Shown here: piece by piece, positions 9,859-39,531 of the stretch
Numbering within the stretch: the first letter of the stretch is position 1
Layout: each line of letters begins with the position of its first letter
Source of the DNA: a virus
UHGV virus genome: UHGV-0279745
DNA length: 64,000 nt
Strand: one strand, 5' to 3'
The notes under the pieces: generated by a model
What the model saw: the letters and a program-made list of their open reading frames with translations, nothing else
The model's database searches: none
Told to the model about the DNA's origin: nothing
Program-made: the position numbers and the translations under genes

Positions 9859-9899
9859 CTCAGATATATTTTACTTAGGTGAGAGTTATGATTAACTCT
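9854..9899 (+). promoter_or_regulatory. conserved promoter-like motif (copy 1) with downstream stem-loop
   Basis: TTTTTTCTCAGATATATTTTACTTAGGTGAGAG; one of four near-identical copies, each after a terminator and before a gene start. Confidence 0.5.
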
Positions 9900-15160: not shown

Positions 15161-15206
15161 AAAAATTTAAGATATATTTCATCTATGTGAGAATTCTCAC
15201 TTAACT
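15161..15206 (+). promoter_or_regulatory. conserved promoter-like motif (copy 2, diverged) with palindromic stem-loop
   Basis: AAGATATATTTCATCTATGTGAGAATTCTCACTTAAC; the GTGAGA...TCTCACTTAAC part matches copy 4. Confidence 0.4.
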
Positions 15207-15500: not shown

Positions 15501-15540
15501 CCCTCTCTCCGTTAGGAGAGAGGGTACTTTTATTTTTCTT
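15501..15540 (+). terminator. rho-independent terminator
   Basis: CCCTCTCTCC-gtta-GGAGAGAGGG followed by a T-run. Confidence 0.75.
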
Positions 15541-15548
15541 CGAGGTGT

Positions 15549-16040
15549 GTGATGACAACAGTTTTAGTAACAAACGATTACATTTTAGCTGATCGGTTGG
15601 TTGATTATGGCGGTACAGTTAAAGCGACACCTAAATTACACAAGTACAAAAACAAATTCGTTGTTTATACTGGGGAACGCGTATTGGACTCGGATTTCTG
15701 GAAAAAGACGATGATGGCCGCAGTAGAAAAATATTTGATTGAAGAAAAGCGAGCCAAGGTTGAAGGATTATTTAAAGATCTTATCGAAAAAGAGCAGTTT
15801 TACGATCAGTTGATCATTTACACAGCTGAGGAAACACACTGGCTCGGTCTGCTAGAGGGTAAATTTGAATCTCGTGTACTGAATAAAAACACGGTTTGGG
15901 CAACGGGCTCTGGTGGAGGATTTGCGCGGGCTGCTTGGGCAACTGGAATATCAGAAAAGAATATTATTCCATTAGTAGGTTCGATTGATACAGCTACATC
16001 ACAAACGTACGACTTATTTTACAGGAAGCACTTACGATGA
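15549..16040 (+). CDS. hypothetical protein
   Basis: 163-aa ORF. Confidence 0.5.
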   Translation: MMTTVLVTNDYILADRLVDYGGTVKATPKLHKYKNKFVVYTGERVLDSDFWKKTMMAAVEKYLIEEKRAKVEGLFKDLIEKEQFYDQLIIYTAEETHWLGLLEGKFESRVLNKNTVWATGSGGGFARAAWATGISEKNIIPLVGSIDTATSQTYDLFYRKHLR

Positions 16041-16558
16041 AGATAAACGCTGTCTTAATTGGCGATGAAATATTCGTTAATACAAAAACGCAATATCTGT
16101 ATTACGAAGGCATTACTGTAATAGAGGATTATTACGGTAAGTACGGTTGGTGGATTCCGTCCCCTAACTCCTTACGATTAGAAGAAGCATTAACTGCTGA
16201 AGAGAACAAACTAGAAGGAGAGTGGACTTATATTAGTTCTATAATTGATGTTAGTGGACGTATTAAGGATGTCTATTGGGCTAAAGAGTCAGGGTGGCGT
16301 GTTACGCTACACCAACTAACACCAGTAAGATTGTTGTACGACCACTCGGACAGTTCAGAGTTAGCGTTTACCATTGAGACGCTCTCGGTACGTAAGGATC
16401 TAGACAACGTAGGGAAAGGGAAGTGGTCTATTGAGCGCATTGAGGAGATTCTCAGCCGCTTTAAAGCTAACAACCAATTTAAACGTTGGTGTACATTGCC
16501 TGAGTTAGTAGAGGAGTTGAAAAAGCGGGATTGCAAGCCGCTACCTTTTAACCCGTAG
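16037..16558 (+). CDS. hypothetical protein
   Basis: 173-aa ORF; ATGA overlap with upstream gene. Confidence 0.5.
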   Translation: MKINAVLIGDEIFVNTKTQYLYYEGITVIEDYYGKYGWWIPSPNSLRLEEALTAEENKLEGEWTYISSIIDVSGRIKDVYWAKESGWRVTLHQLTPVRLLYDHSDSSELAFTIETLSVRKDLDNVGKGKWSIERIEEILSRFKANNQFKRWCTLPELVEELKKRDCKPLPFNP

Positions 16559-16604
16559 TCTTTTTTACAACTGCGGCTATTTTAATGATTAGGAGAATAT
16601 AGAG

Positions 16605-17000
16605 ATGACCGCAATAATAGGTATAATGTCAAGAAAAGCTGATGTCATTAAGACATTTATCGACCAATATAACAACTCACCGTATACGCGTCTTAGATTG
16701 CGTAAACCCCAGAATAGCACAGAATGGGTTCGCTGGTTTAATATTTGGGATAAAACAATAAGTAAAATCAATCCGTTATTCAGAATTAAGGTTGAGCCTG
16801 CTTATTGGATTGTAATGGAAATATCGCTATTACGTATTCTCGAAAAACGTCCTATAGACGTAAAGACGATGTTTGGAATAGATACGTATAAAATGTTGAA
16901 CAATGGTTTTGTGGGTAATGGGGAACACACATTGTATCAAGCGATGCTGGAAATGTGTTTGTTCGATTTAGTTACTTACGAATTGGGGATTTCAAAATGA
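16605..17000 (+). CDS. hypothetical protein
   Basis: 131-aa ORF. Confidence 0.5.
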   Translation: MTAIIGIMSRKADVIKTFIDQYNNSPYTRLRLRKPQNSTEWVRWFNIWDKTISKINPLFRIKVEPAYWIVMEISLLRILEKRPIDVKTMFGIDTYKMLNNGFVGNGEHTLYQAMLEMCLFDLVTYELGISK

Positions 17001-17461
17001 ATTACTTCGAATCTAAAGAAATTGTTGAGTTGTTTAAACAGCGTGAGAAAACTGCATTCCGTGACTTGTACGATTCTGATTATCGCCCACTGTTTGCGGT
17101 ATTAATGCGTCTGGATAAAGAACCCGAAGTCGCGTTAGCAGAGGTACAGCACCACCACGTCAGTTTCGTATTAACCGAAAACATGAGTCGGTGGGTAGAT
17201 GGTATGCTGATCCGTATTGGGCTCTTGGAAACGCCGCATCGTTGGGAAGTGGTTATTCAGAAATCACTGTTCCCACGGGAAGATATTTTCAACAAATATC
17301 GTCCGAAGCAGTATTACAATCACGACGGGTCACCAAAACGTCCTTTCCTGGCACCCCAACATTTTGTAACCTACGTAACGCTACGTTATAAAGACACTGT
17401 GGTGCCGTTTGACACCTACCTGGAAATGCGTGAGATAATTTTAGGGAAGAATCCAACATGA
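16997..17461 (+). CDS. hypothetical protein
   Basis: ORF 16955-17461; ATG 16997 preferred (ATGA coupling with upstream stop). Confidence 0.5.
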   Translation: MNYFESKEIVELFKQREKTAFRDLYDSDYRPLFAVLMRLDKEPEVALAEVQHHHVSFVLTENMSRWVDGMLIRIGLLETPHRWEVVIQKSLFPREDIFNKYRPKQYYNHDGSPKRPFLAPQHFVTYVTLRYKDTVVPFDTYLEMREIILGKNPT

Positions 17462-17940
17462 ATCAATTTTCTGTTGATGCAGAAAGACTAGCGTCATTTA
17501 AAGAACGTGCTCAGTCTGCAGCCAAAAACGGCTATATCGAAAAAGGGGTTCGTGACACCTGCAAGCTAATCAACGACCATCCACACTTGGCGACAATGTG
17601 GAGTTGTGAAGGTCACGGTATGTATTCTAAGTCACCTGGAAATCTGCATATCGTTTTTGCAACAGACGCTATTGGAAGTCAGATTCCAATGCAGGTTATG
17701 ACTGAACTTGCAAAATCGGATTTACCGAATTTCTGGAATCTTAGTTTGTGTCGTCTTTATATACCAGATGCATACACGGATTTGGTATATCTTGAACCTG
17801 ACTATGGATTAAATACCGATGACACTTCTTACTGGTCTTGGAAAATCGGATACATGTGCTTGATTAATCGTCCCGCGTTAATTGAGGCACGTCAAGCTCT
17901 TTATAAAGCATTTCACACAGTATTAGTTGAGAATAAATAA
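17458..17940 (+). CDS. hypothetical protein
   Basis: 160-aa ORF; ATGA overlap. Confidence 0.5.
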   Translation: MNQFSVDAERLASFKERAQSAAKNGYIEKGVRDTCKLINDHPHLATMWSCEGHGMYSKSPGNLHIVFATDAIGSQIPMQVMTELAKSDLPNFWNLSLCRLYIPDAYTDLVYLEPDYGLNTDDTSYWSWKIGYMCLINRPALIEARQALYKAFHTVLVENK

Positions 17941-18632
17941 TGGCTACCAAACAAAAGAAACCGCGTAACAAAAAGTATAACCCGAAAGCCGCTGCTAACC
18001 GTACTGCGCACACCATTGCTGAAAATGCGCTAAACCGCATTACTTTCGTCGGTAGCTCTATTCGTCCTATCGGTCCGTACGCAGGTCGTGGTTTCCAGTT
18101 TACAACGTCACCGCGTATGCGCATGGCGGCTACCGACATGTTAATCGGTGGTTTGTTTGACGAGCCACGTAACTGGAAACTGTGGGTTGCGCATCTGTAC
18201 GAAACAGATAATGGTGTGCAAGCAGAAACCATCGTGGCAACGCTTGACGACTACACGTTAAGTGATTTCTGTCAACACGGTGACAAGATCATCAAGTCGC
18301 TACGTGAGACGGAAGAAAACTACTTCGGTTATGCTTTCGTTGCTGCACCTAACGAACGTTATGATTTTGACCAGGGAGAAGAACGCTTACTGGAAAACTT
18401 CATGCATTCGGGTCTGTTAGACAAATCCTTACACTTACCTGAAGAAGAACTGATGGTTACACGTAAGGACATGGTAACGTTGTTGTTAGCCGATCGTGGT
18501 CGTTTTGATATTACCGAATCACATGTACGTAAAGTACAGAAACTTGTGGATAAGGTAGACGAAACTGACCTGGACACTAACGAAGTCGCATCCCGTATCC
18601 AATCGGTAGTGAATCAGGAAGAGGATTACTAA
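17940..18632 (+). CDS. hypothetical protein (basic N-terminus)
   Basis: 230-aa ORF; TAATG overlap. Confidence 0.55.
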   Translation: MATKQKKPRNKKYNPKAAANRTAHTIAENALNRITFVGSSIRPIGPYAGRGFQFTTSPRMRMAATDMLIGGLFDEPRNWKLWVAHLYETDNGVQAETIVATLDDYTLSDFCQHGDKIIKSLRETEENYFGYAFVAAPNERYDFDQGEERLLENFMHSGLLDKSLHLPEEELMVTRKDMVTLLLADRGRFDITESHVRKVQKLVDKVDETDLDTNEVASRIQSVVNQEEDY

Positions 18633-18634
18633 GC

Positions 18635-19156
18635 GTGATAGCGCGACTTGCGAGTTGGTTTAAGCAACGTCGGGCAAAGGCGGTCGAATGGCCGCCTATT
18701 ACGCACGATGAAAAGGTGGTTGCTTTTCTGAACTATAACAAAGACTTGAAAAGATTAGGCGAGTTAATGCGCTTAACGGAACGTCAGGTTTTTGCTAAGA
18801 TTTCAAGCAGCGCGTTACGTAAAGAAGTGTTCCCACACTTATCCTTTATGGAACAAATCCATGCTGAAAGTGTGGAGAAATTTCTTTCGTTAGTAAATAA
18901 TGAGACTCCACGAATACGGTACTCGGTTACGGATTCATCTGATGCTGTCGGTACGGTCGATTTCGGACGATTGTATCAGAGCATTAAAGACGTGGGCCAT
19001 ATACATGTTAAACGAGTATCAGAAACATCTGTAGTGATTTATCACCATACTGAGCATGATTTGTTAGGGTGCGTTATAACACTAACAAATTTACATAGTT
19101 TTTACGTTGATTTACTTACAGGGTTTTATCCAGAACCATGGTGTTTTATACGATGA
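18635..19156 (+). CDS. hypothetical protein
   Basis: 173-aa ORF with GTG start. Confidence 0.5.
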   Translation: MIARLASWFKQRRAKAVEWPPITHDEKVVAFLNYNKDLKRLGELMRLTERQVFAKISSSALRKEVFPHLSFMEQIHAESVEKFLSLVNNETPRIRYSVTDSSDAVGTVDFGRLYQSIKDVGHIHVKRVSETSVVIYHHTEHDLLGCVITLTNLHSFYVDLLTGFYPEPWCFIR

Positions 19157-19362
19157 AAAGAGCTAATGGATACATCATCTCAGCGATTGTTTCAACCGTG
19201 CTGGTTGTGACGATGCTGATGTTTTATGTCCGTGTGTCAGATGACTCGCGCAAAGAAAGCCTTTATCGTGAGTGTATGTCAGGAAAGACCGTAGACGATC
19301 CACGTTACGCCGAATTAGTAATGGCGTGTACGGAATACGCTAAACGAATGGGAGATGGATGA
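19138..19362 (+). CDS. small membrane-anchored protein (paralog 1 of a pair)
   Basis: One hydrophobic helix (YIISAIVSTVLVVTMLMFYV) then LYREC...C domain, paralogous to the next ORF. Confidence 0.45.
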   Translation: MVFYTMKRANGYIISAIVSTVLVVTMLMFYVRVSDDSRKESLYRECMSGKTVDDPRYAELVMACTEYAKRMGDG

Positions 19363-19559
19363 TGAAAATTTGGTTGCCGATTCTAGTTTTTATCCTTATC
19401 GCAGGTGCACTAGCAAGTGCTGAGTACGATAATCGTGTTCTAGAAACAAAACGTGAATTGTATCAGGATTGTATAAAGGATTACACACCCGGTACAGAGC
19501 TTCATGCACAGGCTGTGAAAAGTTGTGCGTTGATGGCTGAATCGCAGACTCGTTCCTAA
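19359..19559 (+). CDS. small signal-peptide/membrane protein (paralog 2 of a pair)
   Basis: N-terminal MMKIWLPILVFILIAGALASA then LYQDC...C, paralogous to the previous ORF. Confidence 0.45.
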   Translation: MMKIWLPILVFILIAGALASAEYDNRVLETKRELYQDCIKDYTPGTELHAQAVKSCALMAESQTRS

Positions 19560-19933
19560 TGCGTATCTGGACGTTACAGCTCGCTAAGTGGCGGTTAGCT
19601 AAGCAGAAAGGGTTTCACGCAGTGGATATCACTGTGAAGTCAGGGCGAAAGGAACTCGCCCCCGACTGGGATTTCTTAATGGCGTATAAAAACTCTGCAA
19701 AGGATGCAGCTGCTGAACGCGAGTACACGATAAAGTATTTGTACAAACTCGAACGACTGTTAGATACCGACGCCGAAACTTTAGTGTCGTTACTTAGGCA
19801 CGATGACTTGGTTTTGATGTGTTATTGTCCCGCAGGTAAGTTTTGCCATCGTCATCTACTGGCGAGCAAGCTTCAAGAGGTGGGATTGATATTCGGTATC
19901 GACATTGTGTTGTGTGGAGAATTAACGGACTGA
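19559..19933 (+). CDS. hypothetical protein with CxC...CHRH motif (DUF4326/DUF488-like?)
   Basis: LVLMCYCPAGKFCHRHLL resembles the conserved Cys/CHR motif of DUF4326/DUF488-type families; recall-level only. Confidence 0.4.
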   Translation: MRIWTLQLAKWRLAKQKGFHAVDITVKSGRKELAPDWDFLMAYKNSAKDAAAEREYTIKYLYKLERLLDTDAETLVSLLRHDDLVLMCYCPAGKFCHRHLLASKLQEVGLIFGIDIVLCGELTD

Positions 19934-19960: not shown

Positions 19961-20005
19961 CCTACCGCCCGATTCTATGGGCGGTAGGTGTTTTTATTTT
20001 TTTTG
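19961..20005 (+). terminator. rho-independent terminator
   Basis: CCTACCGCCC-gattctat-GGGCGGTAGG followed by a T-run. Confidence 0.75.
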
Positions 20006-20020
20006 ATCTGGGAGGTTTTA

Positions 20021-20581
20021 GTGACTACTTACGTACCTGATTTAAGTCTGGCCTCAGCCGAATTAGTGGTCGCTTTAATCAACCACGATAACGGTTCACG
20101 GTTGTCTCTAAACGAAATCCGTATTAGCAACACTATGGCAAACCCGTCCCCGACCACTTCGCGTCGTAACACACTGACAGAGATTACAAAAATCAGGAAA
20201 CCTGATGGTGCTTCTGTGGTTGTTTATTACGACCGTCTGGATGCGGACGAAGTGTTAGCGTCTGAACCTATTTTGATTTCGTTAGACGGTACTGAAGACA
20301 ACCTTCGTGACATTTTAGGTGTTGTAAATGAATTCTGCGGAACGAACTTACAACCCGAAGATTTACGTGCTGCAGATATCACCTTAGGTAACGAACCCAT
20401 TGCTGTTAACGTTGCTGACGATTCTCCTGCGTGGATGAATGCGTTCATGGTAACGTTATTCGATACAACAGAACGAGCATTAGCAAACGAAGATGATGCG
20501 ATCTTCTGTATTGGTGATGATGCCGTTCTTACCTTTGAGGTTCCAGATGACGATTCAGCTGAAGAAAACCCGGCTACATGA
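20021..20581 (+). CDS. family-X paralog (fibre-associated hypothetical protein)
   Basis: Start placed at GTG 20021, 5 nt after GGAGG; the ORF-track start 19988 lies in the terminator. N-terminus VPDLSLASAELVVALINHD and ...VVVYYDRL match five other paralogs. Confidence 0.55.
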   Translation: MTTYVPDLSLASAELVVALINHDNGSRLSLNEIRISNTMANPSPTTSRRNTLTEITKIRKPDGASVVVYYDRLDADEVLASEPILISLDGTEDNLRDILGVVNEFCGTNLQPEDLRAADITLGNEPIAVNVADDSPAWMNAFMVTLFDTTERALANEDDAIFCIGDDAVLTFEVPDDDSAEENPAT

Positions 20582-20783: not shown

Positions 20784-23700
20784 ATGGCTAAAGCGGTAAA
20801 GAAAATTCGTTTACACGATTTACGTCCATACACCGGGGATATCGGTGAAGGCGTTTTACTTTTTTCGAAAGACGAAAGGGATTATCAGTTACCTGTCCGC
20901 GAGATTGTTGCGGATATTGACACCGTCAGAAACGCGGTTGCTGACGCACAAACGGCGGCGGCCAAATCGCAACAGTCTGCAACAGAAGCCACACAAGCAA
21001 AAGACTTAGCAGAAACAGCGAAGCAACAAACTGACACGTTAGCTTCCACAGTTAGCGAGCAAGCGGGAACCGTTGCCACTAAAACTGCCGAGGTTAGCAA
21101 AAAACACGCTGAAGTTTTAGCCGCGAAAACTGCCGTAGATACTGTATTACAGTCGGTAAATGAGAAAGCTCAAGCTGTCGCTACAAGCGAACAATCGGTG
21201 ACGGCTGCAGCGGCTGACGTAACTAAGAAAGCAGAAACGGTTACGCAACAGGCCGGACAAGTCCAACAGACGGCTACCGGTGTCGAGAATACTGCGGCTT
21301 CAGTTGAGGCCAGTAAGGGCGCAGTGGAGAAGATTGCTGCACAGGTCGCGAAAGATAAAGAAAGTTCAGAAGGCGCAGCAACACGTTCGGAGTCAGCTGC
21401 CTTACGTGCGGAGAAAATCGCTGCGCAGGGCTTAATCGACGCTAGTACAACCGGTAAAGGTATCGTTAAACTTAACGATACACTGACTAGCGAATCCGTG
21501 ACTGAGGCCGCCACACCGTCCACGGTTAAACAGCTGAATGACGAATTACAGTTAAAAGCCAATAAACATTCGCCGAATTTTACGGGTAAACCGTCATCCC
21601 CAACACCCCCGAAAGATTCAAACGACACGAGTATTTCCACAACGGCCTGGGTGCGTGACGCGATTGCGGAACTGGTTGGTTCTTCACCCGAGACGTTAAA
21701 TACCTTAGCGGAATTAGCTGAGGCGTTAGGTAATGACCCTAACTTCGCAACAACGATTACTGGGGAACTTGCGCAGAAACAACCTCTCAGTCCGTTGCTC
21801 ACCGCCATTGCCGCAGTCACCACAGCGGCAAATAAACTCATGTATTTCACTGGCAGTAATAAAGTCGGATTAACGGATTTTACAGAAACTGCCAGATCCT
21901 TGTTAGCGAAAGGGTCAACTGCGGATATCATCAATTTCTTGGGATTAAAGGCTACTGTAGATAAAGCGAATGGCGCGTTACAGAAAAACTCTAACGGCGC
22001 TGATATCCCAGATAAAGAAACGTTTGCTCGCAATATCGGTCTGTCTCCTGACACCTATCTGCGTTTCCGTGGCGAAATGCCAGTAGATGCTGATATTAAC
22101 ACATTTGCTCCAGATGCCAATTACACAGGAACGTGGGCTAAGTCGACGTCAACCAATGCGTCGATGGCAAAACATTTCCCAGAAGACGGTGCAGTCGGTT
22201 ATCTGGAAGTGTATAAAGCCGGTAATTACAGTGGCGCACAGCGTTTTACCTGCCGTAATGGTAACGTGTACAACCGTATGCTGAGTGGCGCGTGGAATGG
22301 TGCCAATGGACCCTGGTCACCGTGGAGAATGGTAACTACTGGTGTACGTCCATTATCTACCTCTATAGACTTGAACAGTTTGGGTGGCGCTGAGCATATG
22401 GGTAACTGGCGAAACTCAAGCAGTTCGCTGGCTGTTTTTAGCAGACATTACCCTGAAGAAGGTGGCGGTGCGCAAGGCGTACTAGAAGTAATGGAAGGTG
22501 GTCTTTTCGGACGGTTGCAGCGATACACCACACGTCGTGGTACGATGTATGTTCGTGGTTTGACCGCAACGTGGGATTCATCAAACCCGCAATGGGAAGA
22601 TTGGATTCAGGTTGGTTATCAGACTGACGGTGCTTTCTTTAAAGCCAATTTTAACGATCTCGTTAAACCGGGACGTTTCAGTGTCACTGGTGAAGCAACT
22701 AACGGTCCACTTACCGGTTCTTCTGGTGAAACCATATTAGGCGTTTGTGAAGTTACCTTACGCTTAGACGGTACAGGGGTCGAACAGAATTATACTACAT
22801 ACGGTACGGGTACAGAAACTAAAGGTCGTAAATTCCAACGTATCCGTACGGGTAACGCTTGGAGTGACTGGCGTGAGGTTTTCACATCGTATTCGCTTCC
22901 GTTGGTATTAGGTATCGGCGGTGAACGTGCGAATGTTGATCCTTTAGACTGGCAAACCTATGACTTTAAACCAGGTGAGTTAATCTGTACGCCGCTTAAC
23001 ACCATGAAAAATATTCCTACGGGAATGGATTGGGGTGTTATTGACGGTAACTTAGTTAGCATTCTGGTTGGTCCATCAGATGGCGCTACATCAGGCCGGA
23101 GTATGTTGGTTTGGCGTAGTACGGTGTCTACTGCCAACTATCGATTCTTTGCAGTACGTATCGCTGGTGATAAAGGTAGTCGTACGATTACACCACGCCA
23201 GATGCCTGTATTGAATGCAGCACACACCTGGGCAGAAAAACAGACCTTTGCAAAAGGGTTAGCAGGTGAGTTAACAGGCAATGCTTCAACCGCAACGAAA
23301 TTAAAGACCGCACGTAGAATTGGTGGGGTCGCCTTCGACGGTAGTGGTGATATTAACCTCCCAGGTGTTAACCAACAGGGTAATCAAAACACCACGGGTA
23401 ATGCCGGGACAGCCACTAAACTTCAAACTGCCAGAAATATTAACGGTGTGAGATTCGATGGTTCTGCTGACATCAATATCAACACCCTGGTAGGTCGTGG
23501 TCGGGTTACTGCACTAACCGGTTCAAACAAAGGTACGCCTGGTATTCAGATGTACGAAGTTTACAATAACGGTTATCCGACCGCTTATGGTAACTTACTG
23601 CATTTGGGTGGTTCTGCCGCATTAGGTGAAGGTGAACTGTTAATCGGTTGGTCGGGCACGAGTGGTGCGCACGCGCCCGTTTATATTCGTAGTCGACGTG

Positions 23701-25385
23701 ATACAGCGGATGCGCCGTGGTCAGATTGGGCACAAGTTTATACTGCCCGTGATAGTATTCCTGGTGTAAATACCACAGGTAATCAAGATACTACTGGTAA
23801 CGCTGCTACCGCGACGAAACTGAAAACTGCTCGCAGAATCGGGGGCGTTACCTTTGACGGTACTGGGGATATCAATTTACCGGGGGTTAACCAGCAAGGT
23901 AACCAGAATACGACAGGTAATGCAGCAACCGCTACTAAGTTACAAACAGCACGTAAGATCGGCGGTGTTAACTTTGACGGTTCGCAAGACATTAGTCTGC
24001 CCGGTGTGAACCAAACCGGTAACCAATCGACTACGGGGAATGCTGCGACAGCGACTAAGCTCCAGACTGCGCGAAATATAGGTGGCGTAGCTTTTGATGG
24101 TACTAAAGACATCAACTTACCTGGCGTAAACCAAACGGGCAATCAGTCGACCACCGGAAACGCGGCCACTGCAACAAAATTGCAGACAGCGCGTACCATT
24201 AACGGTATCGCATTTGACGGCACCAAAAACATCGAAATAACGGCTGAAAGTTTAAATCTTGGCCAAACTGTAGAATTGGCCGGTGGGTCATTGCAGAAGA
24301 AACAGAATGGTGCCGATATTCCAGATAAGAGAAAATTCTTACGAAATGTTGGTGCCGCGAACACAACAACTGTGTCTTTTAATGGTGGTGCCGGATGGTT
24401 CAAACTGGCAACTGTAACGATGCCGCAAGCCAGTTCCGTGGTTTACATAAGCCTGATTGGTGGTGCAGGGTTTAACGTTGGTTCCCCACATCAAGCAGGT
24501 ATCTCTGAGCTGGTTCTGCGCGCAGGAAATGGGAATCCAAAAGGTATTACTGGTGCGTTATGGCGACTGACCTCAGTCGGCTTCACTAATTTTGCATGGG
24601 TGAATACATCTGGTGACACTTACGATATTTATGTTGAAATAGGTAATTACGCCACCGGTGTTAATATTCAGTGGGATTACACTAGTAATGCCAACGTAAC
24701 GATTCATACATCGCCAAGTTATACGGCTAATAAACCCGCAGGACTAACAGACGGTACCGTCTATCTGATTTACAGCACACACAACAAGCCTAACGCTGGT
24801 GACATCGGTGCGTTACCGTCAGGGGGCGGTACTATAGGTGGCGATTTAACCGTTAACGGTAAATTGGTCACTAAGTACCCTGATTTTCGAATCGCTTACG
24901 GCAACTACGGCTTTATGTTACGTAACGATGGTGCCAATACCTATTTCTTAGTAACCGACGCCGGTCAAGCTGCAACGGGTTCCTGGAACGGTCTACGTCC
25001 GTTGTATTTTAATAATGCTAACGGTCAAGTAACCTTTGGTCATAACGTTACTGGCAGCGGTAACGGTTCGTTTAACGACGTACAGATTCGTTCTGACCGT
25101 CGTAACAAACGTAATCTGGTGAAACTAGATAAAGCTTTGGATCGGTTAGAGTTACTAACCGGTTATTTGTACGAAATTCAGCATCCTGACGACGGCTGGC
25201 AGACCTCTGTAGGTCTAATTGCTCAAGACGCATTAGAAGCGTTACCTGAACTTGTGTCTGAGGATGATGATGTCATTTCAGGCGAAAAACGTTTACGTCT
25301 AAACTACAATGGTGTTATTGCGCTGTTAGTAGAGGGTATGAAAGCGTTGCGTCAAGAGATTAACGAAATCAAAGGGAGATCCTAG
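20784..25385 (+). CDS. long tail fibre protein with C-terminal intramolecular chaperone (S74-like) domain
   Basis: 1533 aa: Ala/Thr/Gln-rich N-terminal region, six 40-aa repeats (GNQxTTGNAATATKLQTAR..GV.FDG..DINLPGVNQ), and C-terminal SDRRNKRN...GLIAQDALEALPELV resembling the autoproteolytic chaperone domain of endosialidase-type fibres. Confidence 0.88.
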   Translation: MAKAVKKIRLHDLRPYTGDIGEGVLLFSKDERDYQLPVREIVADIDTVRNAVADAQTAAAKSQQSATEATQAKDLAETAKQQTDTLASTVSEQAGTVATKTAEVSKKHAEVLAAKTAVDTVLQSVNEKAQAVATSEQSVTAAAADVTKKAETVTQQAGQVQQTATGVENTAASVEASKGAVEKIAAQVAKDKESSEGAATRSESAALRAEKIAAQGLIDASTTGKGIVKLNDTLTSESVTEAATPSTVKQLNDELQLKANKHSPNFTGKPSSPTPPKDSNDTSISTTAWVRDAIAELVGSSPETLNTLAELAEALGNDPNFATTITGELAQKQPLSPLLTAIAAVTTAANKLMYFTGSNKVGLTDFTETARSLLAKGSTADIINFLGLKATVDKANGALQKNSNGADIPDKETFARNIGLSPDTYLRFRGEMPVDADINTFAPDANYTGTWAKSTSTNASMAKHFPEDGAVGYLEVYKAGNYSGAQRFTCRNGNVYNRMLSGAWNGANGPWSPWRMVTTGVRPLSTSIDLNSLGGAEHMGNWRNSSSSLAVFSRHYPEEGGGAQGVLEVMEGGLFGRLQRYTTRRGTMYVRGLTATWDSSNPQWEDWIQVGYQTDGAFFKANFNDLVKPGRFSVTGEATNGPLTGSSGETILGVCEVTLRLDGTGVEQNYTTYGTGTETKGRKFQRIRTGNAWSDWREVFTSYSLPLVLGIGGERANVDPLDWQTYDFKPGELICTPLNTMKNIPTGMDWGVIDGNLVSILVGPSDGATSGRSMLVWRSTVSTANYRFFAVRIAGDKGSRTITPRQMPVLNAAHTWAEKQTFAKGLAGELTGNASTATKLKTARRIGGVAFDGSGDINLPGVNQQGNQNTTGNAGTATKLQTARNINGVRFDGSADININTLVGRGRVTALTGSNKGTPGIQMYEVYNNGYPTAYGNLLHLGGSAALGEGELLIGWSGTSGAHAPVYIRSRRDTADAPWSDWAQVYTARDSIPGVNTTGNQDTTGNAATATKLKTARRIGGVTFDGTGDINLPGVNQQGNQNTTGNAATATKLQTARKIGGVNFDGSQDISLPGVNQTGNQSTTGNAATATKLQTARNIGGVAFDGTKDINLPGVNQTGNQSTTGNAATATKLQTARTINGIAFDGTKNIEITAESLNLGQTVELAGGSLQKKQNGADIPDKRKFLRNVGAANTTTVSFNGGAGWFKLATVTMPQASSVVYISLIGGAGFNVGSPHQAGISELVLRAGNGNPKGITGALWRLTSVGFTNFAWVNTSGDTYDIYVEIGNYATGVNIQWDYTSNANVTIHTSPSYTANKPAGLTDGTVYLIYSTHNKPNAGDIGALPSGGGTIGGDLTVNGKLVTKYPDFRIAYGNYGFMLRNDGANTYFLVTDAGQAATGSWNGLRPLYFNNANGQVTFGHNVTGSGNGSFNDVQIRSDRRNKRNLVKLDKALDRLELLTGYLYEIQHPDDGWQTSVGLIAQDALEALPELVSEDDDVISGEKRLRLNYNGVIALLVEGMKALRQEINEIKGRS
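23265..23483 (+). repeat. tandem 120-bp (40-aa) repeat block 1 within the tail fibre gene
   Basis: Two units encoding G(E/N).(T/N)TGNA.TATKL.TAR.I.GV.FDGS.DIN.... Confidence 0.8.
23778..24240 (+). repeat. tandem 120-bp (40-aa) repeat block 2 within the tail fibre gene
   Basis: About four consecutive units GNQ(D/N/S)TTGNAATATKLQTAR.IGGV.FDG..DI.LPGVNQ. with high DNA-level identity. Confidence 0.85.
25091..25382 (+). other. C-terminal intramolecular chaperone / autoproteolysis domain of the tail fibre
   Basis: SDRRNKRN...LTGYLYEI...GLIAQDALEALPELV matches the conserved pattern of endosialidase-type C-terminal chaperone domains as recalled. Confidence 0.7.
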
Positions 25386-27956: not shown

Positions 27957-28002
27957 TCAGATATATATTACCTAGAGGAGAGTGAAATTTACGTTCACTC
28001 CA
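27951..28002 (+). promoter_or_regulatory. conserved promoter-like motif (copy 3) with downstream stem-loop
   Basis: TTTTTTCTCAGATATATATTACCTAGAGGAGAG, then stem-loop GGAGAGTGAA...TTCACTCC. Confidence 0.5.
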
Positions 28003-32337: not shown

Positions 32338-32390
32338 AATAATTTCAGATATATATTACTTAGGTGAGAGTACAAAAGCTCTCACTTAAC
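32338..32390 (+). promoter_or_regulatory. conserved promoter-like motif (copy 4) with downstream stem-loop
   Basis: ATTTCAGATATATATTACTTAGGTGAGAG, then stem-loop GTGAGAG-tacaaaag-CTCTCAC. Confidence 0.5.
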
Positions 32391-36467: not shown

Positions 36468-36944
36468 ATGACCAGTCAAGAAACTATCTTCGACCTTATT
36501 AAAAAGGCTAACCCAGACGCTGAGCTTGACACCGCCAAAGTTACATTGGGTGAGCCCGTCGTAAGTACCGGTGCGTACAACACCGAAGTTACGGTTGCGT
36601 CAATTAAGAATCTCGGTTATGCTAATAAGCAAACGTTCCAGTATAACCGCATCGATGCAGGTTTGTATTTCCTCAACGTATTGCCGAAACTGTTAGTTGA
36701 ATCAGCCACCACGACTGCGGACCTGTTGCCTGTAATTAACGAACAATATGGCTTAACCCTTACTGAAGACGACGTATGGGTAGAGCAGGTTGGTGAGTTA
36801 CCGCTGGACGGCAGCGCAATCGAGCACGGCATTTTCTTCCGTCCTGAGTGCCTAACCTGGGTCGGTGGTTTTACAGTGCGCGTTGCGCGTAAACCGACTG
36901 TTGAAACACCGCCAGCTAATCCATCGCGCGCTAAGAAGAAATAA
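36468..36944 (+). CDS. family-X paralog (putative virion-associated protein)
   Basis: DLIKKANPDAELDTAKVTLGEP...TFQYNRID matches the family-X signature; terminator follows. Confidence 0.55.
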   Translation: MTSQETIFDLIKKANPDAELDTAKVTLGEPVVSTGAYNTEVTVASIKNLGYANKQTFQYNRIDAGLYFLNVLPKLLVESATTTADLLPVINEQYGLTLTEDDVWVEQVGELPLDGSAIEHGIFFRPECLTWVGGFTVRVARKPTVETPPANPSRAKKK

Positions 36945-37712: not shown

Positions 37713-38378
37713 ATGGAGAAGCTTCAATATAAACGTTTAGACAATAAGTGGTTTGTATTAACGGAGGATTACCATTATCCGTTTACGTTACGTGAAATTT
37801 ATCACGACCACGTACACTTAGACCGTGCGGTTTATTTAACGGGTGTATTGCCTGACACACAACTGTGGTTAACGGCACCGAAAGGGTTCGTTACCGATTT
37901 AGCGTCGATTCCTGAACACCTCCAGGGAATTTTCCATCCTGACGGGCCGTGGGCACCTGCGGCCTGCATTCACGACCTACTCTATCAAAAATGCAGTACG
38001 GAACGTAGCTATCCCATGACACCGGGTGGTAACGTTTCGCGTATTATCGACAAAGAGTTTTCTGACTTAACGTTCCTGCGTATTATGCAGTCGTTAGAAA
38101 TCTCGCCTTATATCTGCCAAACATTTTATAAGGCCGTCGTTGAATTCGGCTGGGATTCCTACGTAGATCCTAATGCAAAGCCATCCTACAACACTAACGC
38201 GTTTCGTACGTTAGATTATAATCGAAACTATTTATTCGTTCGCGAGTTTAAGGAACCTGCAATCCCTGACCACGAACGTATTGATATCACCACAGATCAG
38301 CCCGTTAATGTCAAATACCTGAACATCAAACGTGCTTTTCTGTCTGGGAGGGAAGATGTTTCATCCAAATCCGAGTAA
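37713..38378 (+). CDS. DUF1353-like protein
   Basis: GFVTDLASIPEHL...ACIHDLLY resembles the DUF1353 signature (F.TDGASIP...HD.LY); ATG 37713 preferred over GTG 37704. Confidence 0.45.
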   Translation: MEKLQYKRLDNKWFVLTEDYHYPFTLREIYHDHVHLDRAVYLTGVLPDTQLWLTAPKGFVTDLASIPEHLQGIFHPDGPWAPAACIHDLLYQKCSTERSYPMTPGGNVSRIIDKEFSDLTFLRIMQSLEISPYICQTFYKAVVEFGWDSYVDPNAKPSYNTNAFRTLDYNRNYLFVREFKEPAIPDHERIDITTDQPVNVKYLNIKRAFLSGREDVSSKSE

Positions 38379-38871
38379 CTTTAAACTCAAAGAGTTAGTA
38401 CCACAGTCTTATATTGCCAAATACGGCGATTCTGCAATTCGGTTTATGAATCCGTTGTTAATGATTTCGCTACAACAGATTCGTAACCGTTTCGGTAGAA
38501 TGGTGATTAACTCGCCTGCTGCGCAACAGCGTGGCCTAAGAACCTTAGACTTTTTCATCAACCAAGAAAAGCCTAAAGGCGGTAACTATAAACAACGTGC
38601 TTTACAACTCTACTCTGATTCGGGGAGTCAGCACAAGTTCGGTAATGCGATTGATGCAACGTTGTTGGACAGTACCGTAAAGCAGGTTCACGACTACATC
38701 GCCGCTAACCCTGATGAGTTTCCGTTCATTCACTTTATTGAATGCGACATCAGTTGGTTACACATCGACGTTCGTAACCAACCTAACATTACTTTCTGGT
38801 CACCAAATCGAGGTACTGTGAAAGTGGTTAAGCAAAAACCAATCGACTGGAGCTCCTTAGTCGAGATTTAA
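38356..38871 (+). CDS. peptidase M15-like (zinc D,D-/L,D-peptidase fold) cell-wall hydrolase (putative)
   Basis: SGSQHKFGNAIDAT and SWLHIDVRN resemble the M15 zinc-ligand motifs (SxHxxGxAxD ... H.D); ATG 38356 follows GGGAGGGAAG. Confidence 0.5.
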   Translation: MFHPNPSNFKLKELVPQSYIAKYGDSAIRFMNPLLMISLQQIRNRFGRMVINSPAAQQRGLRTLDFFINQEKPKGGNYKQRALQLYSDSGSQHKFGNAIDATLLDSTVKQVHDYIAANPDEFPFIHFIECDISWLHIDVRNQPNITFWSPNRGTVKVVKQKPIDWSSLVEI

Positions 38872-38954: not shown

Positions 38955-38990
38955 TACCCTACTCCTTATCGGGAGTAGGGTAGTTTTTAT
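38955..38990. terminator. terminator between convergent genes
   Basis: ACCCTACTCC-ttatcg-GGAGTAGGGT followed by TTTTTAT on the plus strand. Confidence 0.65.
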
Positions 38991-39469
38991 TATTCCGCAG
39001 GATGGAGCATTGTTCCGGTGTCAGGAGCTACACCTTCTTTACAGTGGAAGAAAGTAATGCCTTTACCATCACCCGTTTTATATTCTAAAGTAGAATACGC
39101 AAACGTTGGTGTTTTTGAAAGTAACCCATTTACACGGTAGTAACGTTGCCCCGTGATAGGATCGATATTTCCATTAACTTTACCTAATAAATCTTTATAA
39201 AGTTGGGGTGACTCAATCTTACCATTTGGCCAAGTGGCTACCCAGTTAGCGCCAGTATCGATCACAGTTACTGAACCTAACATTAGGTTAGTCGAACTAA
39301 CGACAGGTTTGTAATTTACAAAATCCTGCTCTACACCCATACAGGTGTAAATAACCATGTCGTGTGGCTCTACGGGTACAGTTGAGAATTGGCCGTTAGC
39401 GGTGGGTTGTAAAGCACATCCTGCTAATGAAAAAACACCAACCATAGCGATAAGAAAACGTTTTAGCAT
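38990..39469 (-). CDS. lipoprotein (signal peptide with lipobox LAGC)
   Basis: MLKRFLIAMVGVFSLAGCALQP has a type II signal peptide/lipobox; start trimmed from the ORF-track 39529 to ATG 39469. Confidence 0.6.
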   Translation of the reverse strand: MLKRFLIAMVGVFSLAGCALQPTANGQFSTVPVEPHDMVIYTCMGVEQDFVNYKPVVSSTNLMLGSVTVIDTGANWVATWPNGKIESPQLYKDLLGKVNGNIDPITGQRYYRVNGLLSKTPTFAYSTLEYKTGDGKGITFFHCKEGVAPDTGTMLHPAE

Positions 39470-39531
39470 GTTTTCACCTTTTATAAAAAAGTTAAAAATA
39501 ATAATTTTACAGACGACCCTTACTGCCATCT

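What the first reader, a model, noticed from the sequence alone, without database searches (positions are those of the whole stretch)
19138..19559. Tandem paralogous small membrane/secreted proteins with a two-Cys motif
Two adjacent 74- and 66-aa ORFs, with overlapping start and stop, each have an N-terminal hydrophobic segment then LY[RQ][ED]C ... C. This is a small periplasm-facing, probably disulfide-containing pair, far from the lysis genes. Candidate roles are superinfection exclusion or envelope modification.
Basis: partly seen in the sequence, partly recalled or inferred. Interest (0 to 1): 0.4.

Follow-up and report, generated by a model that had tools for sequence, protein, structure and literature searches.

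The report
Small exported two-cysteine phage proteins
Two tiny neighbouring genes of a giant (jumbo) gut phage encode related mini-proteins that are sent to the space outside the bacterial inner membrane. They belong to a small, uncharacterised phage family whose design most resembles factors that stop further foreign DNA entering an already occupied cell, but their function is untested.

Summary
Two overlapping plus-strand genes, 19153-19362 (69 aa) and 19362-19559 (65 aa), are real. They recur in dozens of related jumbo-phage genomes and are under purifying selection (dN/dS 0-0.15).

ORF1 has an uncleaved N-terminal membrane anchor. ORF2 has a canonical Sec signal peptide (ASA|E). Both carry a roughly 45-aa helix-loop-helix with two invariant Cys (C-x17-C).

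They are diverged paralogs in a narrow phage family that includes SPN3US gp116 and gp118 (phrog_28359, phrog_10627). Some relatives are lipoproteins instead, and 19 of 20 of those have Asp at +2, the inner-membrane retention signal. Every form therefore places the hairpin in the periplasm, in most forms tethered to the inner membrane.

No homology was found to Spackle, RI, Llp/Cor, spanins, MgrB or EexN. The closest design analogues are the small Asp+2 entry-exclusion lipoproteins of conjugative plasmids (TrbK, EexN) and T4 Spackle.

The best guess is exclusion of incoming DNA at the inner membrane, and this is inferred, not shown. Interest is modest: a testable candidate in jumbo phages, where a 2026 review mentions no superinfection or periplasmic biology.

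The parts
19153..19362 (+). ORF1, 69 aa (an alternative upstream ATG at 19138 would give 74 aa). Predicted type II inner-membrane protein with a periplasmic two-Cys helical hairpin.
   Evidence: The start at 19153 is the one conserved in relatives. dN/dS 0.13-0.15. AF2: H3-42, loop 43-51, H52-67, pLDDT 74.9. hhalign against phrog_10627-type cores: 95% probability, E = 3.6e-8.
19168..19230 (+). ORF1 hydrophobic segment (residues 6-26, GYIISAIVSTVLVVTMLMFYV), preceded by MKR. Read as an uncleaved signal-anchor, N-in/C-out.
   Evidence: 21 uncharged residues with no small -3/-1 cleavage site. Kyte-Doolittle 19-residue window 1.85.
19231..19359 (+). ORF1 exported domain (residues 27-69). Core is ...SLYREC41 - loop - YAELVMAC59TEYAKRMG. 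Cys codons at 19273-19275 and 19327-19329.
   Evidence: The core is nearly invariant across 27 cluster representatives.
19362..19559 (+). ORF2, 65 aa (an ATG at 19359 would give 66 aa). Secreted periplasmic two-Cys helical hairpin and paralog of ORF1.
   Evidence: dN/dS 0-0.09. AF2: helix to residue 39, loop 40-46, H47-64 (66-aa numbering), pLDDT 77.5. Paralogy.
19362..19421 (+). ORF2 Sec signal peptide, MKIWLPILVFILIAGALASA, with a predicted SPase I site ASA|EYDN.
   Evidence: The -3/-1 rule is met and conserved across variants (A-S-A, A-N-A, A-K-A, A-T-A).
19422..19556 (+). ORF2 mature 45-aa domain, EYDNRVLETKRELYQDC37 - loop - HAQAVKSC55ALMAESQTRS. Cys codons at 19470-19472 and 19524-19526.
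   Evidence: Almost invariant across 51 cluster representatives.
19559..19933 (+). DUF488-N3a gene, translationally coupled to ORF2 (TAATG overlap). It is the conserved downstream neighbour of the family across the clade. Context only.
   Evidence: Pfam PF22751, E = 1.6e-11. Synteny.
18635..19156 (+). Upstream 173-aa ORF of unknown function whose stop overlaps the ORF1 start (ATGA). Context only.
   Evidence: No similarity to SPN3US gp117 or Asesino gp131.
15501..15524 (+). Intrinsic terminator that closes the preceding unit. The operon containing ORF1 and ORF2 starts after it (first gene at 15549).
   Evidence: 10-bp stem with 7 GC pairs and a T-run.
19961..19988 (+). Strong intrinsic terminator directly after DUF488. 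It separates the ORF1/ORF2 operon from the downstream virion-structural and tail-fibre genes.
   Evidence: 11-bp stem with 8 GC pairs and a T-run.

Best explanation
**What it is (well supported).** ORF1 and ORF2 are translationally coupled, diverged paralogs of a small phage-specific family.
- Each is targeted to the Sec translocon.
- ORF1 stays in the inner membrane through an uncleaved N-terminal anchor, with its roughly 43-aa C-terminal domain in the periplasm.
- ORF2 loses a 20-aa signal peptide and becomes a soluble 45-aa periplasmic protein.
- Both domains fold as a helix-loop-helix carrying two invariant cysteines.
- In the oxidising periplasm these cysteines are expected to form a disulfide through DsbA. 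The disulfide is probably intramolecular, but an intermolecular one is not excluded.
- Relatives use a lipoprotein signal with Asp at +2 instead. This also tethers the hairpin to the periplasmic face of the inner membrane.

**How it most likely works (inferred).** The hairpins act as small binding modules at the inner-membrane surface of the infected cell. They would block the inner-membrane step of genome delivery by later-arriving phages, that is, superinfection exclusion.
- This would be analogous to the small Asp+2 inner-membrane lipoproteins TrbK and EexN, which block incoming conjugative DNA, and to T4 Imm and Spackle.
- The anchored and soluble copies may work as a pair.

**Confidence.** About 0.85 for the topology and family statement, and about 0.3-0.35 for the exclusion mechanism. 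The figure given below is for the whole statement.
For: **Real genes.** Purifying selection. The pair recurs with the same synteny in many genomes.

**Export.**
- ORF1: MKR + a 21-residue h-region without a cleavage site.
- ORF2: h-region + a conserved A-x-A|E site.
- Homologs carry SPase I sites (gp118 AHA|A, Stratton AHA|E, P0118 VLA|E) or lipoboxes.

**Family membership.**
- The two Cys are the only invariant columns across 27 sequences.
- An HMM built only from non-window members ranks ORF1 first of 1,034 six-frame segments (E = 0.007).
- hhalign on cores: 95% for ORF1 and 37-46% for ORF2. All scores exceed 200 of 200 column shuffles.
- The full-family HMM separates members (E <= 3e-9, including the untrained P0118) from noise (E > 2).
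- PHROGs independently unites the signal-peptide and lipoprotein forms as phrog_10627.

**Same fold.** AF2 gives the same helical hairpin for both proteins, with the Cys in equivalent positions.

**Inner-membrane face.**
- 19 of 20 lipobox-bearing members have Asp at +2.
- By established knowledge (Yamaguchi 1988; cited in PMC8923210) this retains lipoproteins in the inner membrane of Enterobacterales.

**Design parallels with exclusion factors.**
- RP4 TrbK is a 69-aa cytoplasmic-membrane lipoprotein with Asp+2.
- R46 EexN is 75 aa, LVAC|DA, with two further Cys.
- T4 Spackle is an exported 75-aa helical protein with one disulfide.

**Accessory and mobile.**
- The family is present in about 41 of 66 clade genomes.
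- One member lies in an opposite-strand cassette with its own terminator, inside a siphophage tail module.
Against: - There is no experimental datum and no homology to any characterised exclusion protein.
  - EexN hits vanish when the signal peptide is removed, and hhalign gives 8%.
  - Nothing was found in Pfam, PADLOC or the PDB.
- The hairpin cores are almost invariant within the genus and dN/dS is low. This is not the diversifying pattern often seen in arms-race factors, although it is compatible with a conserved target.
- A strong terminator separates the genes from the tail-fibre module. They sit in an operon of unknown, non-structural genes whose timing is unknown.
- Cys-Cys proximity in the AF2 models could not be measured, because no coordinates were returned. 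Cys1 ends helix 1 while Cys2 is 7-9 residues into helix 2, so an intramolecular bond needs the loop to fold back.
- ORF2's own link to the wider family is only moderate (HH probability 37-46%).
- The Asp+2 rule is established for Enterobacterales. At least one member (P0101) comes from a high-GC, unknown host.
Confidence: 0.35

Rival explanations
1. **Modulator of a host envelope machine or sensor.** The inner-membrane-tethered and periplasmic hairpins bind a conserved host component at the inner-membrane surface. Candidates are a sensor kinase (as the small inner-membrane protein MgrB does with PhoQ), peptidoglycan synthesis or turnover enzymes, Tol-Pal or Sec. The effect would be to keep the envelope stable, or to silence stress responses, during the long jumbo-phage cycle.
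For: - Very strong conservation of the hairpin core within the genus and low dN/dS fit a conserved host target.
- ORF1's topology (a TM segment plus a short periplasmic segment with a Cys pair) resembles that of MgrB. The MgrB sequence was recalled from memory.
- The family occurs in phages of several Enterobacterales genera.
Against: - No sequence relationship to MgrB (hhalign < 1%) or to any cellular family. In the exhaustive HMMER search of 1.84e9 representatives, the only hits beyond small proteins with this export-signal + two-Cys design, all tied to phage contigs where context was available, were TPR-repeat false positives.
- The family is dispensable in about one third of clade genomes.
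- No partner was identified.
Confidence: 0.22
2. **Lysis-timing control (antiholin-like or holin accessory).** Like T4 RI, which has an N-terminal membrane signal and a small helical periplasmic domain, the hairpins would bind the periplasmic part of a phage holin or another lysis protein and delay or tune lysis.
For: - The size, export and helical periplasmic domain resemble RI, which is present in the PDB as 6psk/6psh.
- In Asesino and in metagenome locus L016, a family member directly follows a conserved 58-59-aa two-TM protein that could be holin-like.
Against: - The pair lies about 18 kb from the endolysin-like genes.
- No similarity to RI (hhalign < 0.5%), and RI was not recovered by the profile or fold searches.
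- No holin with a periplasmic domain was identified.
- The two-TM neighbour has no homolog anywhere in this window.
- ORF1's hydrophobic segment is not clearly SAR-like: 6 of 21 residues are Gly/Ala/Ser/Thr.
Confidence: 0.13
3. **Two-component spanin.** ORF1 would be the i-spanin and ORF2 the o-spanin, linking the inner and outer membranes for the last step of lysis.
For: - Adjacent, overlapping genes, one with an N-terminal TM segment.
- Lipoprotein relatives give weak PHROG hits to Rz-like spanins (E = 0.02-0.2).
Against: - ORF2 has no lipobox Cys.
- ORF1's periplasmic part is only 43 aa, far too short to span the periplasm.
- Lipoprotein relatives carry Asp+2 (inner-membrane retention), the opposite of what an o-spanin needs.
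- Most of the weak spanin hits are confined to the signal-peptide region, and all are non-significant.
Confidence: 0.03
4. **Remnant of a duplicated prohead protease.** For the SPN3US homolog gp118, Ali et al. 2017 noted that it has the right length to be the missing C-terminal part of the protease paralog gp117.
For: gp118 directly follows gp117 in SPN3US, and the lengths add up (PMC5694885).
Against: - gp118 has its own Sec signal peptide and the two-Cys core, and it groups with lipoproteins in phrog_10627.
- Family members occur without any gp117 homolog, both in this window and in CR5.
Confidence: 0.02

Closest known systems
phrog_10627 / phrog_28359 (SPN3US gp118 and gp116; Asesino gp134; CR5_125 and CR5_126): uncharacterised PHROG families
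   Same: - The same export-signal + [LF][YF]xxC ... [AV]xxC helical hairpin.
- The same genomic slot upstream of DUF488.
- One or two copies per genome.
- The ORF1 group reaches 95% HH probability against these cores.
   Different: - The window ORFs are too diverged to hit either PHROG by hmmscan.
- Their loop is shorter (C-x17-C compared with x21-23).
- They lack the 20-45-aa C-terminal tails.
- They use a TM anchor or an SPase I signal rather than a lipobox.
- No function is known for any member.
TrbK (IncP RP4) and EexN (IncN R46/pKM101) entry-exclusion lipoproteins of conjugative plasmids
   Same: - Very small (69-75 aa) exported proteins tethered to the periplasmic face of the inner membrane.
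- Lipobox followed by Asp at +2, as in 19 of 20 lipoprotein members of this family.
- EexN also has two Cys in its mature part.
- They block entry of incoming DNA.
   Different: - No detectable homology once the signal peptide is removed.
- EexN's Cys spacing is x11.
- They are encoded inside T4SS operons.
- The window proteins themselves are not lipoproteins.
T4 Spackle (gp61.3), a periplasmic superinfection-exclusion protein
   Same: A phage-encoded, signal-peptide-exported, small all-helical periplasmic protein with one disulfide (PMC7677548).
   Different: - Spackle is a 75-aa multi-helix bundle with a Cys29-Cys81 disulfide that inhibits the gp5 tail lysozyme.
- Here there is only a 2-helix, roughly 45-aa hairpin.
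- No Spackle match appeared among the profile or fold-search hits.
T5 Llp / Cor family superinfection-exclusion lipoproteins
   Same: Small phage lipoproteins with an intramolecular disulfide, acting from the periplasm (PMC9586334).
   Different: - Llp and Cor are outer-membrane lipoproteins that jam FhuA and are encoded next to the receptor-binding protein gene.
- This family is predicted to be at the inner membrane (Asp+2 or a TM anchor).
- It is helical.
- A terminator separates it from the tail fibre.
- The only match to the Cor PHROG covers residues 1-23, the signal peptide (E = 0.36).
T4 RI antiholin
   Same: An N-terminal membrane signal plus a small helical periplasmic domain containing two Cys (sequence verified against PDB 6psk).
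   Different: - No sequence similarity.
- RI's Cys pair is C-x5-C.
- RI's partner is the periplasmic domain of holin T, and no such holin is evident here.

Membership tests
Two-Cys exported hairpin family (phrog_10627-type; SPN3US gp118/gp116 relatives) | N-terminal export or anchor signal (TM anchor, SPase I signal or lipobox) | tested here: met
   ORF1: MKR + a 21-residue h-region. ORF2: h-region + ASA|E.
Two-Cys exported hairpin family (phrog_10627-type; SPN3US gp118/gp116 relatives) | Core [LF][YF]xxC - loop - [DE]x[AV][IV]xxC with both Cys invariant | tested here: met
   The two Cys are the only invariant columns across 27 aligned members.
Two-Cys exported hairpin family (phrog_10627-type; SPN3US gp118/gp116 relatives) | Statistically significant profile similarity of the mature domain (signal peptide excluded) | tested here: met
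   - ORF1 group: hhalign 95%, E = 3.6e-8.
- ORF2 group: weaker, 37% to the family and 46% to ORF1.
- All comparisons exceed 200 of 200 column shuffles, z = 5-15.
- Non-window HMM: ORF1 ranks 1 of 1,034 (E = 0.007); ORF2 ranks 9 (E = 3.8).
Two-Cys exported hairpin family (phrog_10627-type; SPN3US gp118/gp116 relatives) | Direct hmmscan hit to the phrog_10627 or phrog_28359 model | tested here: not met
   Neither ORF hits them even at E <= 10. Membership rests on profile-profile comparison and bridging sequences (P0101).
Two-Cys exported hairpin family (phrog_10627-type; SPN3US gp118/gp116 relatives) | Conserved genomic slot: downstream of the phrog_6965 230-aa gene and upstream of DUF488-N3a | tested here: met
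EexN / TrbK entry-exclusion lipoproteins | Lipobox with Asp at +2 (inner-membrane lipoprotein) | tested here: not met
   The window ORFs have no lipobox. Relatives do: 19 of 20 have Asp+2.
EexN / TrbK entry-exclusion lipoproteins | Sequence similarity of the mature domain to NF033894 (EexN) | tested here: not met
   - Full-length lipoprotein relatives hit at E = 6e-5 and 8e-4, below the 33-bit cut-off.
- The hits disappear without the signal peptide.
- hhalign against mature R46 EexN gives 8%.
- TrbK itself could not be fetched.
EexN / TrbK entry-exclusion lipoproteins | Encoded within a T4SS (VirB/Trb) operon | tested here: not met
   The context is a phage operon. R46 eexN lies between virB5-like and virB6-like genes.
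T4 Spackle | Sequence or fold similarity to the Spackle helical bundle with a Cys29-Cys81 disulfide | tested here: not met
T4 Spackle | Binds and inhibits the tail-associated lysozyme | not testable with these tools
   This needs a binding or activity assay, or a multimer prediction.
T4 RI antiholin | Sequence similarity to the RI periplasmic domain | tested here: not met
   hhalign probability 0.1-0.5% for all four subgroups. The RI sequence was verified in the PDB.
T4 RI antiholin | SAR-type (releasable) N-terminal domain | tested here: inconclusive
   ORF1's h-region has 6 of 21 Gly/Ala/Ser/Thr, which is not clearly SAR-like. No predictor was available.
Two-component spanin (Rz/Rz1 type) | o-spanin: an outer-membrane lipoprotein (lipobox, non-Asp at +2) | tested here: not met
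   ORF2 lacks a lipobox Cys. Lipoprotein relatives have Asp+2.
Two-component spanin (Rz/Rz1 type) | i-spanin: a TM segment plus a long periplasmic coiled coil able to reach the outer membrane | tested here: not met
   ORF1's periplasmic part is a 43-aa hairpin.
Llp / Cor exclusion lipoproteins | An outer-membrane lipoprotein encoded next to the receptor-binding protein gene | tested here: not met
   - The window ORFs have no lipobox.
- Relatives are predicted to be retained in the inner membrane.
- The terminator at 19961-19988 lies between the pair and the tail-fibre gene at 20784.
- The Cor PHROG hit covers residues 1-23 only (E = 0.36).
MgrB-like small inner-membrane regulators | Sequence similarity to MgrB | tested here: not met
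   hhalign < 1%. The MgrB sequence was recalled from memory and not verified.

The most novel reading that the evidence does not exclude
The pair (one inner-membrane-anchored hairpin and one soluble hairpin) would be the first superinfection-exclusion system described for nucleus-forming jumbo phages (the SPN3US-like group). [quoted passage not shown] This is the step that, in these phages, creates the early membrane vesicle around the injected DNA. The design (a tiny, disulfide-containing, inner-membrane-tethered binder) would be convergent with the plasmid entry-exclusion lipoproteins TrbK and EexN. Anchor type would be freely interchangeable during evolution (TM segment, cleaved signal peptide or Asp+2 lipoprotein).
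Probability: 0.2. Interest if true: 0.65.

Novelty: new variant of a known kind. Interest (0 to 1): 0.38.

Why it matters
- A 2026 review of jumbo-phage biology (PMC13282480) contains no mention of superinfection, holins, spanins, periplasm or lipoproteins. Envelope-level functions of these phages therefore appear to be largely unexplored.
- This family gives a compact, genetically tractable candidate: two roughly 45-aa domains with clear point mutants (Cys to Ser, and anchor swaps).
- If it excludes rival phages, it matters for phage-cocktail design against Salmonella and E. coli. It would also extend the 'small inner-membrane-tethered blocker' principle from plasmids to phages.
- The family is also a natural example of interchange between three membrane-targeting signals on one tiny domain.
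- If the proteins do something else, the finding is a correctly annotated small accessory family of modest interest.

Tried and rejected
**Searches that found nothing.**
- Megablast of the locus against deposited phages: no match.
- tblastn of each ORF against phages: nothing.
- Pfam, NCBIfam and PADLOC for the two ORFs: nothing meaningful.
- PDB sequence-profile search: best E = 0.13 (Maxadilan, Rop); chance helical matches.
- The afdb50 fold library was unavailable.

**Leads followed and dropped.**
- EexN: sub-threshold hits were shown to come from the signal peptide. The EexN family search returned only close relatives, so no broad profile could be built.
- RP4 TrbK could not be fetched.
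- RI and MgrB homology: rejected.
- Spanin reading: rejected on the lipobox, Asp+2 and length criteria.
- The L015 121-aa neighbouring lipoprotein was considered as another paralog. It was rejected because its first Cys does not align and it belongs to a different PHROG.

**Other negative or inconclusive results.**
- The exhaustive HMMER search found only 4 further small hits beyond the seeds: three lipoproteins and one scrambled SPN3US gp116-like entry (P0097). The long hits are TPR-repeat false positives.
- 'TTTTTACAAC' as a promoter motif is not enriched.
- Literature search for SPN3US gp116 found nothing. For gp118 it found only the protease-remnant speculation.
- The expression timing class could not be determined.
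Full report
**1. What is in the sequence**

The window comes from a jumbo phage only distantly related to Salmonella phage SPN3US.
- There is no megablast hit among 50,697 deposited phage records.
- The neighbouring 230-aa protein is 62-64% identical to SPN3US-like phages and is found in 66 records from Salmonella, Erwinia, Cronobacter and other phages.

Their likely true boundaries differ slightly.
- ORF1 most likely starts at ATG 19153. This forms an ATGA overlap with the stop of the upstream 173-aa ORF and is the only start conserved in relatives. It ends at 19362 and encodes 69 aa.
- ORF2 most likely starts at ATG 19362. A GGGAG lies 7 nt upstream and relatives are 65 aa. It ends at 19559, and its stop overlaps the start of a DUF488-N3a gene (TAATG; Pfam E = 1.6e-11).

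Strong intrinsic terminators at 15501-15524 and 19961-19988 bracket a gap-free operon, 15549-19933. ORF1, ORF2 and DUF488 are its last three genes. The pair is therefore transcriptionally separate from the virion-structural gene (19988-) and the 1,533-aa tail fibre (20784-) that follow.

**2. Are they real genes?**

Yes.
- Four near-identical IMG/VR genomes and eight further assemblies carry the same pair in the same synteny. Several of these assemblies are contigs of about 221-223 kb from metagenome samples. Gene callers independently report 70-aa and 65-aa products.
- The large protein database holds 27 distinct 90%-identity clusters of ORF1 and 51 of ORF2.
- Nei-Gojobori dN/dS against four relatives is 0.13-0.15 for ORF1 and 0-0.09 for ORF2, within the range of neighbouring genes (0.02-0.41 per comparison; 0.04-0.27 pooled).
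- ORF1 is more diverged than its neighbours at both synonymous and non-synonymous sites (79-87% aa identity). ORF2 is 91-100% identical.
- In both proteins the variation lies in the N-terminal tail, the membrane segment and the C-terminal tip. The hairpin core is almost invariant.

**3. Targeting and fold**

Read directly from the sequence:
- ORF1 has MKR followed by a 21-residue uncharged segment with no small -3/-1 cleavage site. This is a signal-anchor with N-in/C-out orientation, leaving 43 residues outside.
- ORF2 has MK, an 18-residue hydrophobic core and a canonical ASA|E signal-peptidase-I site. The site is conserved as A-x-A in variants. The mature protein is 45 aa.

AlphaFold2 with family alignments gives the same architecture for both proteins.
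- ORF1: helix to residue 42 (Cys41), loop 43-51, helix 52-67 (Cys59); mean pLDDT 74.9, about 81-87 over the core.
- ORF2: helix to residue 39 (Cys38), loop 40-46, helix 47-64 (Cys56), in 66-aa numbering; pLDDT 77.5.

A disulfide is inferred from export plus the invariance of exactly these two Cys. Cys-Cys proximity could not be measured because no coordinates were returned.

**4. Paralogy and family**

*Evidence that ORF1 and ORF2 are paralogs.*
- BLASTP of ORF1 against ORF2 aligns the Cys-to-Cys region (8 of 26 identities, E = 0.001).

*Relatives in SPN3US and other phages.* In the SPN3US syntenic region I noticed two proteins of the same design.
- gp116 (69 aa; TM or signal peptide + FRMC-x17-C).
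- gp118 (110 aa; signal peptide AHA|A + FLEC-x21-C).
- Further members are Asesino gp134, SPAsTU_37, Stratton_138 and the tandem pairs CR5_125/126, EarlPhillipIV gp126/127 and Phobos_127/128.

*Statistical tests.*
- In alignments of up to 27 sequences at under 25% identity, the two Cys are the only invariant columns.
- An HMM built from the cores of non-window members only, with signal peptides removed, ranks ORF1 first of 1,034 six-frame segments of the window (E = 0.007). ORF2 ranks ninth (E = 3.8).
- Core-only profile-profile comparison gives the results below. Every observed score exceeds all 200 column-shuffled controls, with z between 5 and 15.

| Comparison | HH probability | E-value |
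|---|---|---|
| ORF1 group vs phrog_10627-type cores | 95% | 3.6e-8 |
| gp116 group vs phrog_10627-type cores | 77% | 2e-5 |
| ORF1 group vs ORF2 group | 46% | 2e-4 |
| ORF2 group vs phrog_10627-type cores | 37% | 3.6e-4 |

- A full-family HMM separates all members (E <= 2.7e-9) from noise (E > 2) among 4,569 segments. The members include P0118, which was not used in training. There is no third copy in the window.
- PHROGs independently groups the signal-peptide and lipoprotein forms as phrog_10627 and gp116 as phrog_28359, both of unknown function. The window ORFs themselves do not hit either model.

*Size and distribution of the family.*
- An exhaustive HMMER search of 1.84 billion representatives found only 8 small hits at E <= 1e-3: the four seed clusters, three new lipoproteins (P0096, P0101, P0104) and P0097, a scrambled SPN3US gp116-like entry. 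The remaining 12 were long multi-stretch proteins. The two that were read are TPR-repeat proteins, and I take all 12 as false positives.
- Among deposited phages, the gp118-type is in 32 records and the CR5_126-type in 9. That is about 41 of the 66 clade genomes. It is absent near the slot in Wellington and Machina.
- The family is therefore narrow and accessory.

**5. The unifying feature: the periplasmic face of the inner membrane**

- Family members use three different targeting devices on the same domain: an uncleaved TM anchor, a cleaved Sec signal peptide or a lipobox.
- Of 20 lipobox-bearing members, 19 have Asp at position +2 (C|DT, C|DQ, C|DN, C|DD, C|DA). The exception has Ser-Asp.
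- By established knowledge, Asp+2 is the Lol-avoidance signal that retains lipoproteins in the inner membrane of Enterobacterales (Yamaguchi et al. 1988; Gennity & Inouye 1991, as cited in PMC8923210).
- The lipoprotein forms are therefore topologically equivalent to ORF1's TM anchor. The signal-peptide forms release the same hairpin into the periplasm.
- Many genomes carry two copies:
  - anchored + soluble in this window and in SPN3US;
  - two inner-membrane lipoproteins in CR5, EarlPhillipIV and Phobos.
- Asesino and locus L016 instead have a conserved 58-59-aa two-TM protein directly followed by one soluble family member.
- Some ORF2 variants have Cys at mature position +2 (ASA|ECDNR). This aligns with the lipoproteins' G|CDN, one or two point mutations from a lipobox.

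**6. Context elsewhere**

- Within the jumbo-phage clade, the family always lies downstream of the phrog_6965 230-aa gene and upstream of a ~335-360-aa gene and DUF488, sometimes with an HslU-like ATPase in between.
- This window keeps only DUF488 (58% identity). It has no homolog of gp117 (the prohead-protease paralog), gp119, the ATPase or the two-TM protein.
- This, together with gp118's own signal peptide, contradicts the suggestion of Ali et al. 2017 that gp118 might be the detached C-terminal part of gp117 (PMC5694885).
- One member (P0096) lies outside jumbo phages. It is in a five-gene plus-strand cassette with its own terminator, inserted in a minus-strand siphophage tail module with a tape measure, chaperones and a tail protein. 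This arrangement is moron-like.
- Another member (P0101) sits on a short high-GC contig beside a putative DNA methylase, judged by eye from a DPPH motif.

**7. Comparison with known systems**

No homology was found to any characterised protein.

| Comparator | Result |
|---|---|
| Pfam, PADLOC | no match |
| PDB sequence profile | best E = 0.13 |
| T4 RI (sequence verified in the PDB) | hhalign < 0.5% |
| MgrB (sequence recalled from memory) | hhalign < 1% |

- Lipoprotein relatives gave sub-threshold NCBIfam hits to the EexN entry-exclusion lipoprotein (E = 6e-5 and 8e-4). These vanish when the signal peptide is removed. hhalign against mature R46 EexN gives 8%. Membership is rejected.
- The design parallel with entry-exclusion lipoproteins is nevertheless close.
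  - R46 EexN is 75 aa, LVAC|DA (Asp+2), with two further Cys.
  - RP4 TrbK is a 69-aa cytoplasmic-membrane lipoprotein with a conserved Asp+2.
  - Both block incoming conjugative DNA.
- T4 Spackle is an exported 75-aa helical protein with one disulfide that inhibits the tail lysozyme.
- T5 Llp and Cor are small disulfide-containing lipoproteins, but they act at the outer membrane and are encoded next to the receptor-binding protein gene.
- Spanins are excluded. ORF2 has no lipobox, ORF1's periplasmic part is only 43 aa, and relatives carry Asp+2.

**8. Interpretation**

*Shown.* The two genes are real, translationally coupled and paralogous. They carry export signals, are predicted to be helical hairpins with two invariant Cys, and belong to a narrow accessory phage family with interchangeable anchors.

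*Inferred.* A DsbA-formed disulfide, residence at the inner-membrane face, and action as binding modules.

*Most likely role, in my judgement (about 0.3-0.35).* Exclusion of incoming DNA or phage at the inner-membrane step.

*Rivals.* Modulation of a conserved host envelope component (about 0.2; favoured by the very high conservation of the core) and lysis-timing control (about 0.13).

*What could not be determined.* The timing of expression, the binding partner, and whether the disulfide is intra- or intermolecular.

**9. Verdict**

- The structural and topological interpretation is supported. The functional interpretation is plausible but untested.
- This is a new, diverged variant of a known kind of phage gene: small exported accessory proteins.
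- Interest is modest (0.38). It would rise if the exclusion role were demonstrated in jumbo phages.

Noticed in passing
whole window; loci L002-L005, L021-L028: This jumbo-phage genus has no megablast hit among deposited phages. It does appear as near-complete contigs of about 218-230 kb in metagenome assemblies (several apparently human gut), and in NCBI assemblies labelled Salmonella enterica (several serovars), E. coli and Shigella boydii. That suggests a carrier state, pseudolysogeny or contamination of the isolates.
   Followed up: partly
window 9862-9874, 27959-27971, 32347-32359 (+); degenerate copy near 15165: An intergenic element, AGATATAT[AT]TTAC, followed by a hairpin (TAGGTGAGAG...CTCTCAC). 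There are 3 exact copies against 0.36 expected. It may be the phage's own early promoter plus a 5' hairpin.
   Followed up: partly
L001 5484-5816 (SPN3US gp118) and L001 5002-5487 (gp117): Ali et al. 2017 suggested that gp118 might be the missing C-terminal part of the prohead-protease paralog gp117. In fact gp118 has its own Sec signal peptide and the two-Cys core. Family members also occur without any gp117 homolog.
   Followed up: yes
window 19559-19933 and the absence of neighbours: DUF488-N3a is retained (58% identity to SPN3US gp120). However, the ~335-aa gene that precedes it in all fetched syntenic loci outside this phage's own genus (its N-terminus looks PP-loop-like by eye), the HslU-like ATPase and the gp117 paralog have no homolog anywhere in these 64 kb.
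   Followed up: partly
L003 and L004 ORF2 homologs; P0077: Some ORF2 alleles carry a third Cys immediately after the predicted cleavage site (ASA|ECDNR). It aligns with the lipid-modified Cys of the lipoprotein relatives (G|CDN). This shows a short mutational path between a signal-peptidase-I site and a lipobox.
   Followed up: partly
window 38990-39529 (-): A predicted lipoprotein (internal start MLKRFLIAMVGVFSLAGC|AL; +2 = Ala, so outer-membrane type; phrog_9559, unknown function). It is encoded on the opposite strand, right next to the endolysin-like ORF at 38332-38871, and could be lysis-related.
   Followed up: no
window 19988-20581, 36468-36944, 39608-40144, 40215-40745: At least four paralogs of a virion-structural family (PHROGs 1037/2935/3589; the copy at 19988-20581 also matches Pfam DUF7941) are scattered through the window.
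   Followed up: no
window 20784-25385: The 1,533-aa tail fibre contains about six tandem copies of a roughly 35-aa motif (GNQ.TTGNA.TATKLQTAR.I.GV.FDG..DI.LPGVNQ). Relatives' gene calls carry Phage_fiber_2, Gp34_trimer and Peptidase_S74 domains. Its N-terminal part varies strongly between otherwise close genomes.
   Followed up: no
window 17458-17940: This 160-aa ORF gives a weak, sub-threshold Pfam hit to the N-terminus of methyltransferase TYW3 (E = 9e-4, 19 bits against a cut-off of 27). It matches phrog_7413.
   Followed up: no
L006 7748-7924 (Asesino gp133); L016 6775-6954: A conserved 58-59-aa two-TM protein (MEN[MV]Y...) directly precedes the soluble family member in Asesino-like phages. 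Other small two-TM proteins occupy the slot in Machina, Wellington and SPAsTU. None has a homolog in this window.
   Followed up: partly
SPFM phage records (hits H106-H117); P0097, P0121-P0126: In several deposited SPFM genomes the gp118 homolog is broken into 2-4 frame-shifted pieces, and one annotated protein (P0097) is a scrambled version of gp116. This looks like assembly or sequencing error in that region rather than biology.
   Followed up: no
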